Part shown: positions 151 through 3,510 of the stretch, piece after piece
How positions within the stretch are numbered: position 1 is the stretch's first letter
Layout of the letters: every line of letters starts with the position of its first letter
NCBI GenBank assembly: GCA_000004985.1
Contig: GG739220.1
Direction: 5' to 3' (one strand)
DNA length: 3,510 nucleotides
Origin: Naegleria gruberi
Taxonomy: Eukaryota
Translations under genes and position numbers: made by a program
The notes under the pieces: model-generated
Seen by the model: only the letters and a program-made list of their open reading frames with translations
What the model was told of the DNA's origin: nothing
Database searches by the model: none

Positions 151-525
151 TCATGTGAATCTGGCAGTGATGATGATTTTAGTGAAAATATTAAATTTCA
201 CTAAAATATTACTATTATCAGATTTATTTCCGCAAATATTACTATTATAATGATGATAAATAACAATGATGATGGTTGGTAGTTGTTCCGATGATGATGT
301 ACCAACTTGAATTTTTCCAAATAATAAAATTATTTCCAAATCATGATGAAGGATTAAATTCCAGAAATTACTAGTAATACTATTATTTAAATGATGATGA
401 GATGATGTGGTGAAATTCTTGGAGTTAATAGATGTGAAATCACTCCAAGAATCAACAGAGTCGTGATGTACCTGATGTTGATCCAATATTTTTGAAATAT
501 TTTTCCAAGTTCTTGTAGATTCCAA
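151..525 (-). CDS. Low-complexity His/Ser/Asn/Ile-rich open frame with no ATG anywhere. Either an internal exon of a minus-strand gene or a by-product of (ATGATGA)n strand asymmetry.
   Basis: The frame is open from the TAA at 550..552 down to the TGA at 151..153 (134 codons). The first track codon is TTG, and there is no Met in the entire frame. Its composition (HHH, NNS, SSS, III) derives from TGATGA/ATTATT repeats on the plus strand. Confidence 0.22.
   Translation of the reverse strand: MESTRTWKNISKILDQHQVHHDSVDSWSDFTSINSKNFTTSSHHHLNNSITSNFWNLILHHDLEIILLFGKIQVGTSSSEQLPTIIIVIYHHYNSNICGNKSDNSNILVKFNIFTKIIITARFT
160..400. repeat. Degenerate low-complexity region with multiple (A)TGATGA tracts and short direct repeats. 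These include aaatattactattat at 204..218 and 234..248, and tttccaaat(t)atcatg-tgaa at 140..161 and 333..354.
   Basis: TGATGATGA-type tracts at 168..176, 250..256, 266..275, 291..300 and 381..400. A 15-nt exact direct repeat spaced 30 nt. A ~22-nt imperfect repeat spaced 193 nt. Confidence 0.5.
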
Positions 526-587: not shown

Positions 588-836
588 CAGTCTAAATTAC
601 TTCAATTTACTGAGCTATCCATTAAATATAACCACATCATTATTGATGTTTCTCCTTTCTTTTTGGAAGAAGGTTTGTTCGAAAGTAACTTTGATTTTGC
701 GAACTAATTTATTCAACCCTTCATCCATAGCAACACGGTAGCTGATAAAGAGAAAGCTTGTCAAAAGAAGAGAACGTTGAAGTAAAGTATGCCATCACCC
801 TAGTCACCAGCAAGATCCAAAAACCTAAAGATGAAA

Positions 837-861
837 GAGAGGTTTTAAAAACCGTCCTCTC
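837..861. other. Inverted repeat gagagg-(ttttaaaaaccgt)-cctctc, nested with the near-palindrome GGTTTTAAAA(A)CC.
   Basis: 6-bp arms with a 13-nt spacer. The spacer itself is a 12/13-nt palindrome. This suits a protein-binding dyad or an RNA hairpin. Confidence 0.45.
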
Positions 862-1077
862 AAGGTGGCAACCCTAACAGCTACAACAATAGAGATTGAA
901 ACAGTTCAACAACTTTATTCTAGACCTAAGGAGGTCAATTTAGAAATAAAGGACAGCTCCTTCAAAAATTGCAACATTCAAAGATGCTAATTCTCTTAAT
1001 CTTAAACAATCTGATTCGAACAACAATTTTGGGGTAAAAGAGAGATTCTAAAGGTATTTCATTGAAGGAATATTTAT

Positions 1078-1476
1078 GTGATTGCTATCAATCAAACTGG
1101 GGAATCAATTAATGACGAGTTATCTTCAGATGAAATATTTGATTTGATATTGTCAACTTCTAATGAACAATATTCAGCTGACTCTGAATTCTATGGCTTT
1201 TCTTCTTCAAAGAGTGACCACTTCGTCCCATATCACTCATTCCATTCCAATAGCCACGAGCAAACACCAACCACCATGGATCCGGTTCTAACAACTCCAA
1301 TTCCTCCGTATCAATCAATAAGTGGCAGACTCTCATTTCCATCAACGTTGGAAAGAATTCGGCGTATCAGAAATAATTGTAGATTGGATAAAAAACGGAA
1401 TTCCAATCGATTCAGATTCCAGCCAATAGAAAAATTACTTCCAGAGGAAGTTCTCAGAAAGAGAAAATATGGATAA
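1078..1476 (+). CDS. Hypothetical ORF or exon of 132 codons. Its only plausible ATG start is 1276..1278, which would give a 66-aa basic peptide. The N-part is acidic and Ser-rich, the C-part Arg/Lys-rich.
   Basis: It is open from the TGA at 1063 to the TAA at 1474..1476. The track's 'start' at 1078 is GTG. The in-frame ATG at 1276 sits in the textbook Kozak context ccaccATGg. The C-terminus IRRIRNNCRLDKKRNSNRFRF...RKRKYG is strongly basic. No recognisable domain is present. Confidence 0.3.
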   Translation: MIAINQTGESINDELSSDEIFDLILSTSNEQYSADSEFYGFSSSKSDHFVPYHSFHSNSHEQTPTTMDPVLTTPIPPYQSISGRLSFPSTLERIRRIRNNCRLDKKRNSNRFRFQPIEKLLPEEVLRKRKYG

Positions 1477-1563
1477 GGAGAGATAGAATCCATGTTACAA
1501 ACCAAATTATAACTCATGTTCCAGTAAGGAAACAACACAATTGACAAATAACCTTCTTCCAAG

Positions 1564-1660: not shown

Positions 1661-3304
1661 TTAAACATGCTTCAATTCAATCGTAGAACTGCTTTCTTGT
1701 GTTTGCATGTATGAGTGTGAATTTCTTGTATTGTTCTTATCTTTACCGAGTTTCTTTACTACAAACCAAATAATTACTGCAATTAGTAGGGCAGTTAGTG
1801 GAATGAGGACTAGTAACATTAATAACCACATTAATGGATTGCTAGTTGCAGGTTTTTTGACAATTATATTTGAATTTGATGAAGAGGAGGTTGATGCAGT
1901 TTCAATTGATTTGTATTCAAGAATTGAAAGATTATATCTTAATGAAGAGCATTCACAAGTTGCTATTTGATTATTCTTGATAGAAATGGAACAATCAGTT
2001 TCCAACGATGCTGATCCAATGTTAGCACAAACATAAGTTGCCTGACTGTCGTATTGTTTCATCTCAATGTCGAATAAGTATTTCGAATAAGATTGAGGTG
2101 AAGGATCAAGTTGTAAACTATTTACAACTGAATTGATAGATATCATCTTTCCAGGTTGCTTTAAAATTGCAATGGTGTCTGTATTTTTTTGAATATTCCA
2201 TCTATACTTGATTGGTGACTTGATTGAATTGGTTTTCAAGAAAGATGAAATGTTCAATGGTAACGTGATATTTACCATCTCACTTTCGAATTTCATTCCA
2301 TTCATTTCATTCTTGAAATGCTTGTTTAGAACTGTCAAATAACTGTTAGTTTCAAACTTAAATGGTGTTTGACCAATTAAAACATTTCTCAATAAAACTT
2401 GTCCTAATAATTCAAAAGTTTCCAATAATTTTTCATTTGAAACTAAAGCCATTAAATTTTCTTGCAAATTCATAATATTTTGCAAGTTGACCAAATCGCC
2501 TCTAGACAGAACAAAGGCAGTGCTTGATTGAACTGATGCCAAAGCATCTCTCAATAAAAATAAACTAGAGTTGGCCGTTTGGTTGGAATGATATTCAGAA
2601 TTTTGTGAAATTGAATTCAATCCAAATAATAAATTTGTAATGTAATTTCTATTTGTTGATTCTGCAGCAGTTGTCATGATTTGACTGGAACCCATAAAAT
2701 CATTCAATAAATCTCTAATTAAAGATTGAATAAATTCAAAATCTTCATTGGTCCATCTACAATTACTTGTCGTAAATCCAGAATTACAAACACATTTTCC
2801 ATCTTTAAATTGTCCATTTCCATTACATAAATCTCTCTTTGAACTTATACTGTTAAATAATAAATTCATTGTTCTAGAAATGGTTGCAGTATTGAAAACA
2901 CTTCGTTGATAATCACCAACAGGAGCCAATGTTGCTATTTGGTTCCATGAGGCTGTTAACTTTTTGATTTCTGCTAAACTTTTGACAACTGGAAGAGTGA
3001 TGGTAACTTGTTTGATTGTTATGGAGCTAGATCCTGTCACTGGATCAATTACCTTGACATAAAGATCTAATTTGTTTCCAGAATTTGGCATTGGAAGTTT
3101 TTGATATAATTCTTCTGTTTTAGAAAGTGGAAAGTTGGATTTTGAAAAATCATCAATAAAACCATATTCGAAAGTATTACTATTCTGATCGTTTTGACAT
3201 TTTGGACAATTGAAAGTAAATATTGTCGTCATTGCAACACCACTCAAAGGTGACACTTGACAGTCACATGGTTTTGGTGATTTTATCCACCTCTTTCTAG
3301 ACAA
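1661..3304 (-). CDS. Single-pass (C-terminal TM) membrane glycoprotein with an EGF-like motif. The ORF runs 547 codons stop-to-stop. The first in-frame ATG is codon 25 (3230..3232). The true 5' end is uncertain and may be an upstream exon.
   Basis: Longest ORF in the window, ending in TAA at 1661..1663. It has a 26-aa hydrophobic helix LMWLLMLLVLIPLTALLIAVIIWFVV followed by KKLGKDK (stop-transfer). Five N-x-S/T sequons lie N-terminal of the TM. C160-x10-C171-x-C173-x2-G-F-x5-C182 matches the EGF signature C-x-C-x2-[GP]-[FYW]-x4-8-C. A Ser-rich stalk (TASTSSSSNSN) precedes the TM. Codon usage is coherent (GGA, AGA, CAA, AAT, TTA/TTG). AATAAA lies downstream on the same strand. Antisense frames are broken. 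Confidence 0.78.
   Translation of the reverse strand: MSRKRWIKSPKPCDCQVSPLSGVAMTTIFTFNCPKCQNDQNSNTFEYGFIDDFSKSNFPLSKTEELYQKLPMPNSGNKLDLYVKVIDPVTGSSSITIKQVTITLPVVKSLAEIKKLTASWNQIATLAPVGDYQRSVFNTATISRTMNLLFNSISSKRDLCNGNGQFKDGKCVCNSGFTTSNCRWTNEDFEFIQSLIRDLLNDFMGSSQIMTTAAESTNRNYITNLLFGLNSISQNSEYHSNQTANSSLFLLRDALASVQSSTAFVLSRGDLVNLQNIMNLQENLMALVSNEKLLETFELLGQVLLRNVLIGQTPFKFETNSYLTVLNKHFKNEMNGMKFESEMVNITLPLNISSFLKTNSIKSPIKYRWNIQKNTDTIAILKQPGKMISINSVVNSLQLDPSPQSYSKYLFDIEMKQYDSQATYVCANIGSASLETDCSISIKNNQIATCECSSLRYNLSILEYKSIETASTSSSSNSNIIVKKPATSNPLMWLLMLLVLIPLTALLIAVIIWFVVKKLGKDKNNTRNSHSYMQTQESSSTIELKHV
1757..1834 (-). other. Transmembrane helix segment of the membrane protein (residues ~491-516).
   Basis: An uninterrupted run of L/I/V/M/W/F/A encoded here. 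It is preceded by P-A-T-S-N-P and followed by the basic K-K-L-G-K-D-K. Confidence 0.7.
1949..2029 (-). other. Juxtamembrane 4-Cys module C426-x11-C438-x11-C450-x-C452. Its Cys spacing is GPS/GAIN-like, but it lacks the HL^T cleavage consensus.
   Basis: The spacing C-x11-C-x11-C-x-C sits ~38 aa before the TM and is followed by SSLRYNLSIL. It resembles the GPS Cys framework only in spacing. Confidence 0.3.
2759..2827 (-). other. EGF-like Cys motif CNGNGQFKDGKCVCNSGFTTSNC (residues 160-182).
   Basis: Direct match to the EGF-like signature-2 pattern C-x-C-x(2)-G-F-x(5)-C. Only four Cys are present, with no C1/C2 within 25 aa upstream, so this is an atypical or truncated EGF-like unit. Confidence 0.55.
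3264..3269 (-). promoter_or_regulatory. Minimal start-stop uORF (ATG-TGA) 35 nt upstream of, and out of frame with, the first in-frame ATG.
   Basis: Minus-strand ...aaaaccATGTGActgtcaag... Only relevant if transcription starts upstream and codons 1-24 are leader. Confidence 0.25.
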
Positions 3305-3510
3305 TTAAATTTAAAAATATCAAATGTTCTATTTATTATATAATAATTATCTACATAATTAGTTTTGACTGAATCGGTCTAGAAAAAAAGTTATGTTTAA
3401 AAAACTATTTCAACTTTAATATTTATTTTCTCTTTCATTTTTAAGAATTTTTAATTTTTGATACCCTAGAAAATTCTAATTTAAAATACTATATTTCATA
3501 TATTTTTTAA
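3305..3510. other. Extremely AT-rich (~15% GC by hand count) ORF-free spacer 5' of the minus-strand gene. It is either promoter/intergenic DNA or an intron.
   Basis: Only short ORFs on the minus strand (MKEKINIKVEIVF*, M*). Runs of A/T. Ends at ...ttaattgtctag|AAAGAGG, which resembles a 3' splice acceptor. Confidence 0.5.
3336..3342 (-). promoter_or_regulatory. TATA-like element (minus strand tatataataaatag). It is ~105 nt upstream of the first in-frame ATG (3232) of the membrane-protein ORF.
   Basis: TATATAA on the minus strand inside an ~15% GC tract. The spacing is compatible with a TSS near 3310 and a short leader. Confidence 0.3.

What the first reader, a model, noticed from the sequence alone, without database searches (positions are those of the whole stretch)
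1661..3304. Large EGF-motif membrane glycoprotein ORF with no signal peptide and no ATG for 24 codons
Everything downstream of codon ~40 reads as the ectodomain, stalk, TM and tail of a type I membrane glycoprotein. The evidence is the EGF C-x-C-x2-G-F-x5-C motif, five N-glycosylation sequons, the Ser-rich stalk, and the TM followed by a KK stop-transfer. Yet the N-terminus MTTIFTFNCPKCQNDQ... (from the first ATG) is not a signal peptide. The frame stays open for 24 more codons upstream, starting right after a TAA, and includes a C-D-C...C-P-K-C (CxC-x17-CxxC) arrangement. Either a signal-peptide exon lies upstream (beyond 3510, or via the acceptor-like ttaattgtctag|AAAG at ~3297), or the protein has an unconventional topology or function. 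Which it is changes what this gene is.
Basis: partly seen in the sequence, partly recalled or inferred. Interest (0 to 1): 0.55.

Follow-up and report, generated by a model that had tools for sequence, protein, structure and literature searches.

The report
Truncated Naegleria REJ–EGF–GAIN receptor gene
The ORF is the last 29% of a roughly 1,850-residue surface receptor of the amoeba Naegleria gruberi, and it seems to lack a signal peptide only because the first two-thirds of the gene are not on this tiny unplaced 3.5-kb scaffold.

Summary
In detail: a 547-codon minus-strand frame (1661..3304) opens right after a TAA, has its first ATG at codon 25, and carries an EGF motif, sequons, a TM segment and a KK. 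The window is an entire 3,510-bp scaffold of Naegleria gruberi. The annotated model NAEGRDRAFT_54901 (523 aa) equals ORF residues 25-547.

The ORF is not a whole protein. Pfam REJ matches residues 10-134 to profile positions 314-445 of 452. Twenty-nine of the 32 homologues, 19 of the 27 looked up being Naegleria gruberi proteins, start matching at ORF residue 5-14, and 28 of these 29 carry 127-4,273 residues upstream. The closest paralog, NAEGRDRAFT_48114 (1,854 aa, 92% identical), aligns its residues 1319-1854 and has an N-terminal signal-like segment, an EGF array and a longer REJ match. Met25 is a conserved internal L/M.

Unresolved: whether the 15%-GC stretch 3305-3510 is a long intron (about 45%), or marks a truncated or interrupted copy or an assembly artefact. 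An unconventional topology is very unlikely. Ordinary finding, with a modest bonus: a fold-only GAIN domain that I found unreported in Naegleria.

The parts
1661..3304 (-). Open frame of 547 codons plus a TAA stop (1663-1661). It is the C-terminal segment of a REJ-EGF-GAIN single-pass membrane protein. Residues 25-547 equal the annotated N. gruberi model NAEGRDRAFT_54901.
   Evidence: 523/523 identical to P0033, which is recorded on a 3510-bp contig
3305..3510 (-). Non-coding stretch of 15% GC upstream of the ORF, running to the scaffold end. It has stops in all three frames, no GT[AG]AGT or GTATGT donor, and no similarity to any family protein. It is either part of a long intron, an insertion or breakpoint, or intergenic DNA.
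3305..3307 (-). In-frame TAA that closes the frame immediately upstream of the first codon (TTG).
3291..3298 (-). Three AG dinucleotides (3298-3297, 3294-3293, 3292-3291) that could serve as splice acceptors. They lie 8-15 nt upstream of the first residue that aligns with homologues. Their use is not shown.
   Evidence: (sequence)
3284..3304 (-). Codons 1-7 (LSRKRWI). No significant homology here: family members have [YH]-[ST]-F-x-[IV]-x-x. RWIK weakly resembles K-[VL]-V-K of some paralogs.
3230..3232 (-). ATG used by the public gene model (codon 25). It aligns with a conserved internal L/M in the strand G-x-A-[LM]-x-T-x-F-x-F-x-C, so it is not a native start.
2903..3277 (-). C-terminal part of the REJ domain (residues 10-134, matching Pfam PF02010 profile positions 314-445 of 452). 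In the model it is an Ig-like beta-sandwich (residues 16-103) followed by helices. It carries the conserved Cys13, Cys15, Cys33 and Cys36.
2759..2833 (-). Single EGF-like domain (residues 158-182), including the EGF_1 pattern CVCNSGFTTSNC at 171-182.
2384..2749 (-). GAIN subdomain A: a bundle of five long helices and one short helix (residues 186-307).
   Evidence: architecture as described in PMC3321182
1910..2362 (-). GAIN subdomain B: a beta-sandwich of 12 modelled strands plus two small helices (residues 315-465).
1910..2029 (-). GPS-like motif: Cys426-x11-Cys438-x11-Cys450-x-Cys452-S-S-L455|R456, then the last strand YNLSILEY. It is in exact register with latrophilin C832-x-C834-x-H836-L837|T838, but has Ser in place of the His and Arg in place of the Thr/Ser nucleophile. 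Autoproteolysis is therefore predicted to be absent.
1838..1909 (-). Ser-rich, disordered juxtamembrane linker (residues 466-489).
   Evidence: pLDDT below 50
1757..1834 (-). Transmembrane helix (residues 491-516), followed by KK.
1664..1756 (-). Cytoplasmic tail of 31 residues ending in IELKHV. A tail end of the form [IV]-E-[LM]-x-[TH]-V recurs in several paralogs.

Best explanation
The window is a whole 3.5-kb unplaced scaffold of Naegleria gruberi NEG-M. The ORF is the C-terminal roughly 29% of a member of a family of very large type I surface proteins, which is expanded in N. gruberi and also has members in N. fowleri and Willaertia.

Full-length members have this layout: signal peptide, an EGF array (sometimes with NHL or PKD-like domains), a REJ domain, one EGF, a GAIN domain, a single TM, and a short tail. 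Only the stretch from the last REJ beta-sandwich onward is encoded here.

The missing signal peptide, and the frame that stays open upstream of the first ATG, are consequences of truncation. The public 523-aa model simply starts at the first in-frame Met, which is an internal conserved L/M position.

Mechanistically (inferred from the family architecture), the mature protein would be co-translationally translocated using the signal peptide of the missing N-terminal part. It would be N-glycosylated and disulfide-bonded, and displayed as a long adhesion or sensing stalk. The GAIN domain would sit directly on the membrane. In this copy that domain has SSL|R instead of H-L|T/S, so it should act as a structural, uncleaved module, as the BAI3 GAIN domain does in its uncleaved crystal structure.

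Why the coding sequence stops at codon 8 is not settled. My weights are:
- about 45%: a long (more than 206 nt) intron, with the rest of the gene beyond the scaffold end;
- about 35-40%: a 5'-truncated or insertion-interrupted paralog copy;
- about 10%: an assembly artefact at the scaffold end.
For: **Identity**
- P0033 (NAEGRDRAFT_54901) lies on a 3510-bp contig and is 523/523 identical to ORF residues 25-547.

**The ORF starts mid-domain**
- Pfam REJ matches residues 10-134 to profile positions 314-445 of 452.
- In paralog P0001 the same REJ hit spans residues 1122-1445, and the window aligns to 1319-1854 (497/541 identical).
- Twenty-nine of the 32 homologues begin to match at ORF residue 5-14. 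Twenty-eight of these carry 127-4,273 upstream residues; the other is the 523-aa model of this ORF itself.
- N-terminal signal-like hydrophobic segments are present in P0001, P0008, P0010, P0011, P0016, P0019, P0021, P0023 and P0031.
- Met25 aligns to an internal L/M, and Cys13/15/33/36 are family-conserved.

**Fold**
- The AF2 model has mean pLDDT 73.6 and pTM 0.71.
- Foldseek gives 4dlo_A at E=3.9e-10.
- The GPS register and residues are shown.

**Frame maintenance**
- The frame carries no stop and three in-frame indels at 8% amino-acid divergence from P0001.
- A neutral-drift simulation gives P(no stop) of 0.018 at 8%, 0.14 at 4% and 0.38 at 2%.
Against: **Against the sub-claim of an intact gene joined through an intron**
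- Two N. gruberi-like paralog loci, L001 and L002, read straight through the equivalent point in one ORF. The same is implied for the homologues known only from metagenome or read-assembly contigs (P0007, P0017, P0018, P0020, P0025, P0026, P0031, P0032).
- The three introns visible in L001 are only 37-51 nt long. Here at least 206 nt of non-coding DNA without a donor consensus precede the ORF.
- The rest of the scaffold (1-1660) is decayed, TE-like sequence, and a third partial copy (P0002, 98% identical) sits on another tiny scaffold. This pattern is typical of repeat- or pseudogene-rich regions.

**Limits on the core claim**
- No transcript data and no genomic DNA of P0001 could be obtained.
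- Nothing found argues against the core claim that this is a fragment of a larger family protein.
Confidence: 0.88

Rival explanations
1. This is a 5'-truncated or interrupted paralog copy, that is, a gene fragment or young pseudogene. A segmental duplication, rearrangement or insertion cut the gene between the codons equivalent to 1318 and 1319 of the full-length paralog. No functional signal-bearing N-terminus is joined to this ORF.
For: - Homology ends abruptly at codon 8, seven codons after an in-frame TAA, and upstream is 15%-GC DNA with stops in all frames.
- Paralog loci L001 and L002 have no intron at this point, and the family introns seen are 37-51 nt.
- The scaffold is tiny, the adjoining 1.6 kb is decayed and without Pfam hits, and another partial copy lies on a 1043-bp scaffold.
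Against: - The frame is open for 540 homologous codons at 8% divergence from P0001, with all three indels in frame and every invariant or near-invariant family residue retained.
- Under neutral drift, P(no stop) is 0.14 if half the divergence fell on this lineage and 0.018 if all of it did. A truncation would therefore have to be recent.
Confidence: 0.37
2. The scaffold end is an assembly artefact. The last roughly 200 nt (3305-3510) would have been joined wrongly, through a chimeric clone or read, so the true genome continues with coding sequence as in the paralog.
For: - The N. gruberi assembly is highly fragmented: 1,977 scaffolds with an N50 of 160 kb (Table 1 of PMC9928731).
- The break lies within 210 nt of a scaffold end, and exactly where paralogs continue uninterrupted.
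Against: The sequence 3305-3510 reads as normal AT-rich Naegleria non-coding DNA, and the transition is clean. There is no direct evidence of chimerism. This could not be tested without reads.
Confidence: 0.1
3. This is a complete, stand-alone 523-aa (or 547-aa) protein with unconventional biogenesis. It would be translated from ATG 3232 without a signal peptide and anchored by its C-terminal TM, with the large domain in the cytosol or inserted by a non-classical route.
For: This is what the public annotation shows. The TM ends only 31 residues from the C-terminus, which is loosely like a tail anchor.
Against: - The product would begin in the middle of a beta-sandwich and a REJ domain.
- It keeps 12 cysteines, eight of them invariant or nearly so among the 16 aligned family members (three of the four EGF cysteines are not conserved there), plus an EGF domain, a GAIN domain and five sequons. 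These are hallmarks of extracellular folding.
- Met25 is an internal conserved L/M.
- No other family member starts at this point: all 28 other homologues that match it extend at least 127 residues upstream.
Confidence: 0.04

Closest known systems
Sea urchin receptor for egg jelly SpREJ1 (also SpREJ8 and SpREJ9), the single-TM members of the PKD1/REJ family
   Same: Large glycosylated ectodomain with a REJ domain, one EGF domain (in SpREJ1), a GPS site immediately before the first and only TM, and a short tail (PMC1934368). The window protein and its full-length paralog show REJ, then EGF, then GAIN/GPS-like, then one TM.
   Different: - SpREJ1 has C-type lectin domains; the Naegleria proteins have long EGF arrays, sometimes with NHL or PKD-like domains.
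- The Naegleria GPS region is not recognised by the Pfam GPS or GAIN models and lacks the His of the H-L|T triad.
- The EGF domain here is inserted between REJ and GAIN.
- The organism is a heterolobosean amoeba, not an animal.
Polycystin-1 (PKD1) and PKD1-like proteins
   Same: REJ domain followed by a GAIN domain next to the membrane. The REJ Pfam model hits with E=2e-10 here and E=1.6e-24 in the full-length paralog.
   Different: There is no PLAT domain after the first TM, no 11-TM or channel-like region and no coiled coil. The tail is only 31 residues. The cleavage site reads SSL|R rather than HL|T.
GAIN domains of adhesion GPCRs (BAI3/ADGRB3 4DLO, GPR110, CELSR1, GPR126, latrophilin-3)
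   Same: The fold matches: a helical subdomain A plus a beta-sandwich subdomain B. The GPS four-Cys spacing is shared, and the conserved Leu sits in the same register, just before the membrane. The BAI3 GAIN domain in the best-matching structure (4DLO) is likewise uncleaved.
   Different: There is no 7TM domain and no HormR domain. Sequence identity is only 10-14%. The conserved Trp residues of the GPS motif were not checked.
Ancient GAIN-domain proteins reported from Tetrahymena thermophila and Dictyostelium discoideum (Arac et al. 2012, PMC3321182)
   Same: Protist proteins carrying GAIN domains with GPS motifs.
   Different: That paper does not list Naegleria or any other Discoba. No paper in the searched library mentions Naegleria together with 'GAIN domain' or 'REJ domain'.

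Membership tests
PKD1/REJ family (polycystin-1-like, SpREJ) | REJ domain (Pfam PF02010) | tested here: met
   E=2.1e-10, 40.2 bits against a cut-off of 25, but only profile positions 314-445 of 452. Paralog P0001 gives 86.8 bits over positions 95-445. Fourteen of 16 aligned members hit the model.
PKD1/REJ family (polycystin-1-like, SpREJ) | GPS/GAIN immediately upstream of the first TM | tested here: met
PKD1/REJ family (polycystin-1-like, SpREJ) | PLAT/LH2 domain after the first TM, and multi-pass (up to 11 TM) membrane region | tested here: not met
   There is a single hydrophobic segment (491-516), a 31-residue tail and no PLAT hit. SpREJ1, SpREJ8 and SpREJ9 also have one TM, so this excludes a PKD1-type member but not a SpREJ1-type one.
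GAIN domain (autoproteolysis-inducing domain of aGPCRs and PKD proteins) | Six-helix subdomain A plus twisted beta-sandwich subdomain B (13 strands, 2 small helices) | tested here: met
   The model has 5 long helices and 1 short one (179-300), then 12 strands and 2 small helices (308-458), in model numbering. Definition taken from PMC3321182. Fold matches.
GAIN domain (autoproteolysis-inducing domain of aGPCRs and PKD proteins) | Four conserved GPS cysteines forming two disulfides (C801/C832 and C820/C834 in CL1) | tested here: inconclusive
   The sequence pattern C426-x11-C438-x11-C450-x-C452 is invariant in all 16 aligned members and has the right order and CxC spacing. Disulfide pairing itself cannot be tested here.
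GAIN domain (autoproteolysis-inducing domain of aGPCRs and PKD proteins) | Cleavage triad His-Leu|Thr/Ser, two residues after the CxC | tested here: not met
   The window has S454-L455|R456, and P0001 has S-L|G. No family member has His. Several paralogs have [KRQ]-[LF]|T, resembling the R-L|S of BAI3. In CL1, H836S and T838G abolish cleavage without unfolding the domain.
GAIN domain (autoproteolysis-inducing domain of aGPCRs and PKD proteins) | Recognition by sequence profiles (Pfam GPS and GAIN models) | tested here: not met
   No GPS or GAIN hit at E<=1 in the table for the window protein, nor among the 25 most widely matched families across the 16 aligned members (36 families matched in all; the other 11 were not shown).
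Adhesion GPCR | Seven-transmembrane domain after the GAIN domain | tested here: not met
   One TM only, and the protein ends 31 residues after it.
EGF-like domain | Six-Cys EGF signature or profile match | tested here: met
   PF23106 EGF_Teneurin scores 26.6 bits against a 24.3 cut-off at residues 158-182. The PROSITE EGF_1 regex matches 171-182. Only four Cys (160, 171, 173, 182) are present, so it is a short EGF variant.
Type I membrane protein | Cleavable N-terminal signal peptide | tested here: not met
   Absent from anything encoded in the window. Present as a hydrophobic N-terminal segment in the 92%-identical paralog P0001 and in eight other family members. No dedicated signal-peptide predictor was available.
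Type I membrane protein | Single TM near the C-terminus with positive-inside flank, and a glycosylated Cys-rich ectodomain | tested here: met
   TM 491-516 followed by KKLGKDK, five sequons and 12 Cys upstream.
   The TM ends 31 residues from the C-terminus. However, the N-terminal part consists of REJ, EGF and GAIN domains with conserved cysteines, which are known only as extracellular modules. Topology cannot be measured here.

The most novel reading that the evidence does not exclude
The window represents an unreported, heterolobosean-expanded family of single-pass REJ-EGF-GAIN receptors. At least 19 N. gruberi proteins belong to it, together with N. fowleri and Willaertia members. Their GAIN domain is invisible to current sequence profiles, and some paralogs keep an [KR]-L|T site that could still self-cleave.

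If the family descends vertically, the REJ+GAIN juxtamembrane module would predate the split of Discoba from the lineages where it is known (animals, Amoebozoa, ciliates). It would then be LECA-age, and it would originally have worked on a single-pass anchor rather than on a 7TM or 11TM receptor.
Probability: 0.3. Interest if true: 0.5.

Novelty: new member of a known kind. Interest (0 to 1): 0.25.

Why it matters
For this window, the result removes an apparent paradox. There is no signal-less glycoprotein here, only a truncated gene model (NAEGRDRAFT_54901) on an unplaced scaffold. That model should be flagged as partial.

More broadly, Naegleria carries a sizeable family of REJ-EGF-GAIN single-pass surface proteins. 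They are annotated only as 'predicted protein', and their GAIN domain is detectable by fold alone. This extends the known range of the GAIN/REJ module to Discoba. It also offers simple single-TM versions in which GAIN function could be studied, both cleavable and naturally uncleavable.

Tried and rejected
**Searches that found nothing**
- The search for homologous proteins with the whole ORF and with residues 8-210 returned nothing, although the protein's own cluster is in the collection. This is a limit of the word index, not evidence of absence.
- The look-up of encoding contigs found no record for P0001, for the window's own 523-aa product or for P0002. No DNA-level comparison with the closest paralog, and no dN/dS, was therefore possible.
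- The search for related loci in JGI metagenomes failed twice: alignment A1 was not conserved enough, and the single protein gave no confirmed relative.
- The afdb50 fold library was unavailable.
- Sequence search of the PDB gave only chance-level hits.
- Rfam found nothing in the window, and repeats are only short chance-level matches.
- Pfam gave no hits for three ORF or conceptual translations from 1-1660.

**Ideas rejected**
- A ciliate genetic code. Gln is encoded by CAA or CAG (24 and 2 codons) with no in-frame TAA or TAG, and the upstream frame still contains TGA stops in table 6.
- A short intron with an upstream exon inside the window. There is no donor consensus, stops occur in all frames, and tblastn with P0001 or any family protein gives no hit outside 1664-3283.
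- A zinc-binding reading of CxC...CxxC. These cysteines are conserved across the family within an extracellular beta-sandwich.
Full report
**1. The observation**

The minus strand carries a 547-codon open frame at 1661..3304. Its first codon, TTG (3304-3302), directly follows an in-frame TAA (3307-3305). The first ATG is codon 25 (3232-3230).

A script confirmed the remaining features:
- cysteines at 13, 15, 33 and 36;
- the PROSITE EGF_1 pattern at 171-182 (CVCNSGFTTSNC), with a spacer of 4 residues, not 5;
- five sequons before the membrane segment (241, 245, 345, 351, 458) and one in the tail (524);
- a hydrophobic segment at 491-516, followed by KK;
- a 31-residue tail.

GC content is 31% in the ORF and 15% in 3305-3510. 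Gln is encoded by CAA or CAG (24 and 2 codons) with no in-frame TAA or TAG, and the upstream frame still has TGA stops under the ciliate code. The standard code therefore applies.

**2. Where the window comes from**

An exhaustive HMMER search found 32 relatives. Cluster look-ups covered 27 of them:
- 19 are Naegleria gruberi 'predicted proteins';
- one is from Willaertia magna;
- one is a read-assembly ORF whose cluster mate P0034 is an N. fowleri 'PKD/REJ-like domain-containing protein';
- six are unnamed or uninformatively named proteins from metagenome or read-assembly contigs.

P0033 (NAEGRDRAFT_54901, XP_002668202.1, 523 aa) is recorded on a contig of exactly 3510 bp. It is 523/523 identical to ORF residues 25-547. 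The window is therefore an entire small unplaced scaffold of the N. gruberi NEG-M assembly. That assembly has 1,977 scaffolds (PMC9928731). The public model simply starts at the first in-frame ATG.

**3. The ORF is a C-terminal fragment**

- Pfam REJ matches residues 10-134 to profile positions 314-445 of 452, so the ORF opens two-thirds of the way through a domain.
- The closest paralog is P0001 (NAEGRDRAFT_48114, 1,854 aa). It aligns residues 1319-1854 to ORF residues 8-547, with 497/541 identical and three in-frame gaps.
- P0001 has an N-terminal signal-like segment (MAIIQRRTATIASLLIIVLWYCFCTQHSIEA), an array of EGF repeats (ten matched stretches for Pfam EGF_Teneurin), a PKD-like domain and a REJ match over residues 1122-1445.
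- In a local phmmer run, 29 of the 32 relatives begin to match at ORF residue 5-14. Apart from the window's own 523-aa model, which starts at residue 25, all of these carry 127-4,273 residues upstream.
- The family consensus just upstream is [YH]-[ST]-F-x-[IV]-x-x-SPKPCxC, whereas the window reads LSRKRWI-KSPKPCDC.
- Met25 aligns with a conserved internal L/M.
- Eight other family members also have N-terminal hydrophobic signal-like segments.
- tblastn with P0001 and all relatives finds nothing in the window outside 1664-3283.

**4. What the encoded part is**

An AlphaFold2 model was built on an alignment of the window protein with 15 paralog C-termini (A1). It has mean pLDDT 73.6 and pTM 0.71. 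In ORF numbering it shows:
- an Ig-like beta-sandwich (about 16-103), then helices;
- a small EGF domain;
- a bundle of five long helices and one short one (186-307);
- a beta-sandwich of 12 strands and two small helices (315-465);
- a disordered Ser-rich linker;
- a TM helix, then a disordered tail.

This matches the published definition of the GAIN domain: six helices plus a 13-strand sandwich with two small helices, placed immediately before the first TM (PMC3321182).

The four invariant C-terminal cysteines (426, 438, 450, 452) and Leu455 are in exact register with latrophilin C832-x-C834-x-H836-L837|T838. The window, however, has S-S-L|R, and P0001 has S-L|G. In latrophilin, H836S and T838G abolish cleavage without unfolding the domain. 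This copy is therefore predicted to have an uncleaved, structural GAIN domain. Several paralogs have [KRQ]-[LF]|T, which resembles the R-L|S of BAI3.

The Pfam GPS and GAIN profiles do not appear for the window protein, nor among the 25 most widely matched of the 36 families hit across the 16 aligned members. The GAIN assignment therefore rests on fold and motif register.

**5. Why the coding sequence stops at codon 8**

Three AG dinucleotides (3298-3297, 3294-3293, 3292-3291) lie just upstream of the homology boundary.

Evidence for a maintained gene:
- The frame is open over 540 homologous codons at 8% divergence from P0001.
- All three indels are in frame.
- All conserved residues are kept.
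- A neutral-drift simulation gives P(no stop) of 0.018, 0.14 and 0.38 for 8%, 4% and 2% divergence on this lineage.

Evidence against an ordinary intron:
- Two contigs from ENA assembly ERZ929261 are 98% identical in protein to NAEGRDRAFT_71165 and NAEGRDRAFT_61914. Both carry single ORFs that run straight through the equivalent point.
- The same is implied for the other homologues known only from metagenome or read-assembly contigs.
- The introns visible in the 5' part of one of these loci are only 37-51 nt, of the form GT[AG]AGT or GTATGT...AG.
- In the window, at least 206 nt of non-coding DNA precede the ORF, with no donor consensus and stops in all frames.
- The rest of the scaffold (1-1660) is decayed sequence without Pfam hits.
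- A third partial copy, 98% identical, sits on a 1043-bp scaffold.

Genomic DNA for P0001 could not be obtained, so the question stays open. My weights are:
- long intron with the rest of the gene off-scaffold, about 45%;
- truncated or interrupted copy, about 35-40%;
- assembly artefact, about 10%;
- genuine stand-alone signal-less protein, at most 5%.

**6. Comparison with known systems**

The architecture REJ, then EGF, then GAIN/GPS, then a single TM is closest to sea urchin SpREJ1. That protein has one TM, one EGF domain and a GPS before the TM (PMC1934368).

It differs from PKD1 proper: there is no PLAT domain and no 11-TM region. It differs from adhesion GPCRs: there is no 7TM domain.

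GAIN domains have been reported from Tetrahymena and Dictyostelium. No paper in the searched library mentions Naegleria together with 'GAIN domain' or 'REJ domain'.

**7. Verdict**

The puzzling lack of a signal peptide is an artefact of a truncated gene model on a tiny scaffold, not unusual biology. The protein is a new, partial member of a known kind: the REJ/GAIN surface receptors.

The modest point of interest is at family level. N. gruberi, with relatives in N. fowleri and Willaertia, carries an expanded set of single-pass REJ-EGF-GAIN proteins whose GAIN domain is detectable only by structure.

Noticed in passing
window 780-1560 (+ strand), especially 1078-1476 and about 1330-1440: Coding-like composition (33-41% GC) but broken frames. 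A 132-aa ORF is followed, after a frameshift, by 'HFHQRWKEFGVSEIIVDWIKNGIPIDSD'. From memory, this motif resembles the N-terminal region of DIRS- or Crypton-type (tyrosine-recombinase) element proteins. There are no Pfam hits, so this is probably a decayed mobile-element or pseudogene remnant.
   Followed up: partly
window 151-525 (- strand) and 160-420 (+ strand): A 124-aa ORF rich in His, Ser, Ile and Asn, lying over repeated ATGATGATG tracts and short direct repeats (AATATTACTATTAT, three copies). No Pfam hit; nature unknown.
   Followed up: partly
P0002 (NAEGRDRAFT_77148, on a 1043-bp N. gruberi scaffold) versus window 1664-2305: A third copy of the gene's 3' end, 98% identical in protein to the window over 214 residues (five differences, including R456G at the GPS +1 position). 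It sits on another tiny scaffold and is either a divergent allele or a very recent duplicate.
   Followed up: partly
L001 and L002 (ENA assembly ERZ929261, run ERR1078381, project PRJEB11402): An assembly labelled as a metagenome contains contigs whose proteins are 98% identical to N. gruberi NEG-M paralogs. A close N. gruberi strain is therefore present there and could supply the full-length version of the window's gene.
   Followed up: partly
L001 502-707: The public model NAEGRDRAFT_71165 appears to skip a plausible 39-codon exon (VDDNMIKLLSGPNLTYILGSSNYNIVCVNGSLATNCQFK). The exon is flanked by GTATGT...CTAG and GTGAGT...AAAG introns. The model instead translates part of the second intron (VL[TI]L[VG]FKTK), so it is probably a mis-spliced model.
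   Followed up: partly
window 1664-1681 (the last six codons, IELKHV) and paralog C-termini: Several family members end in, or near, the motif [IV]-E-[LM]-x-[TH]-V: IELKHV, IELITV, VELMTV, VEMETV..STV, ELITV..FSTV. Some have an extra S-T-V end. This may be a conserved cytoplasmic sorting or binding motif.
   Followed up: no
tool behaviour (versus 20): The word-indexed protein search did not return the query's own cluster or its 92%-identical paralog, although both are in the collection. Negative results from that tool for this eukaryotic family are not informative.
   Followed up: yes
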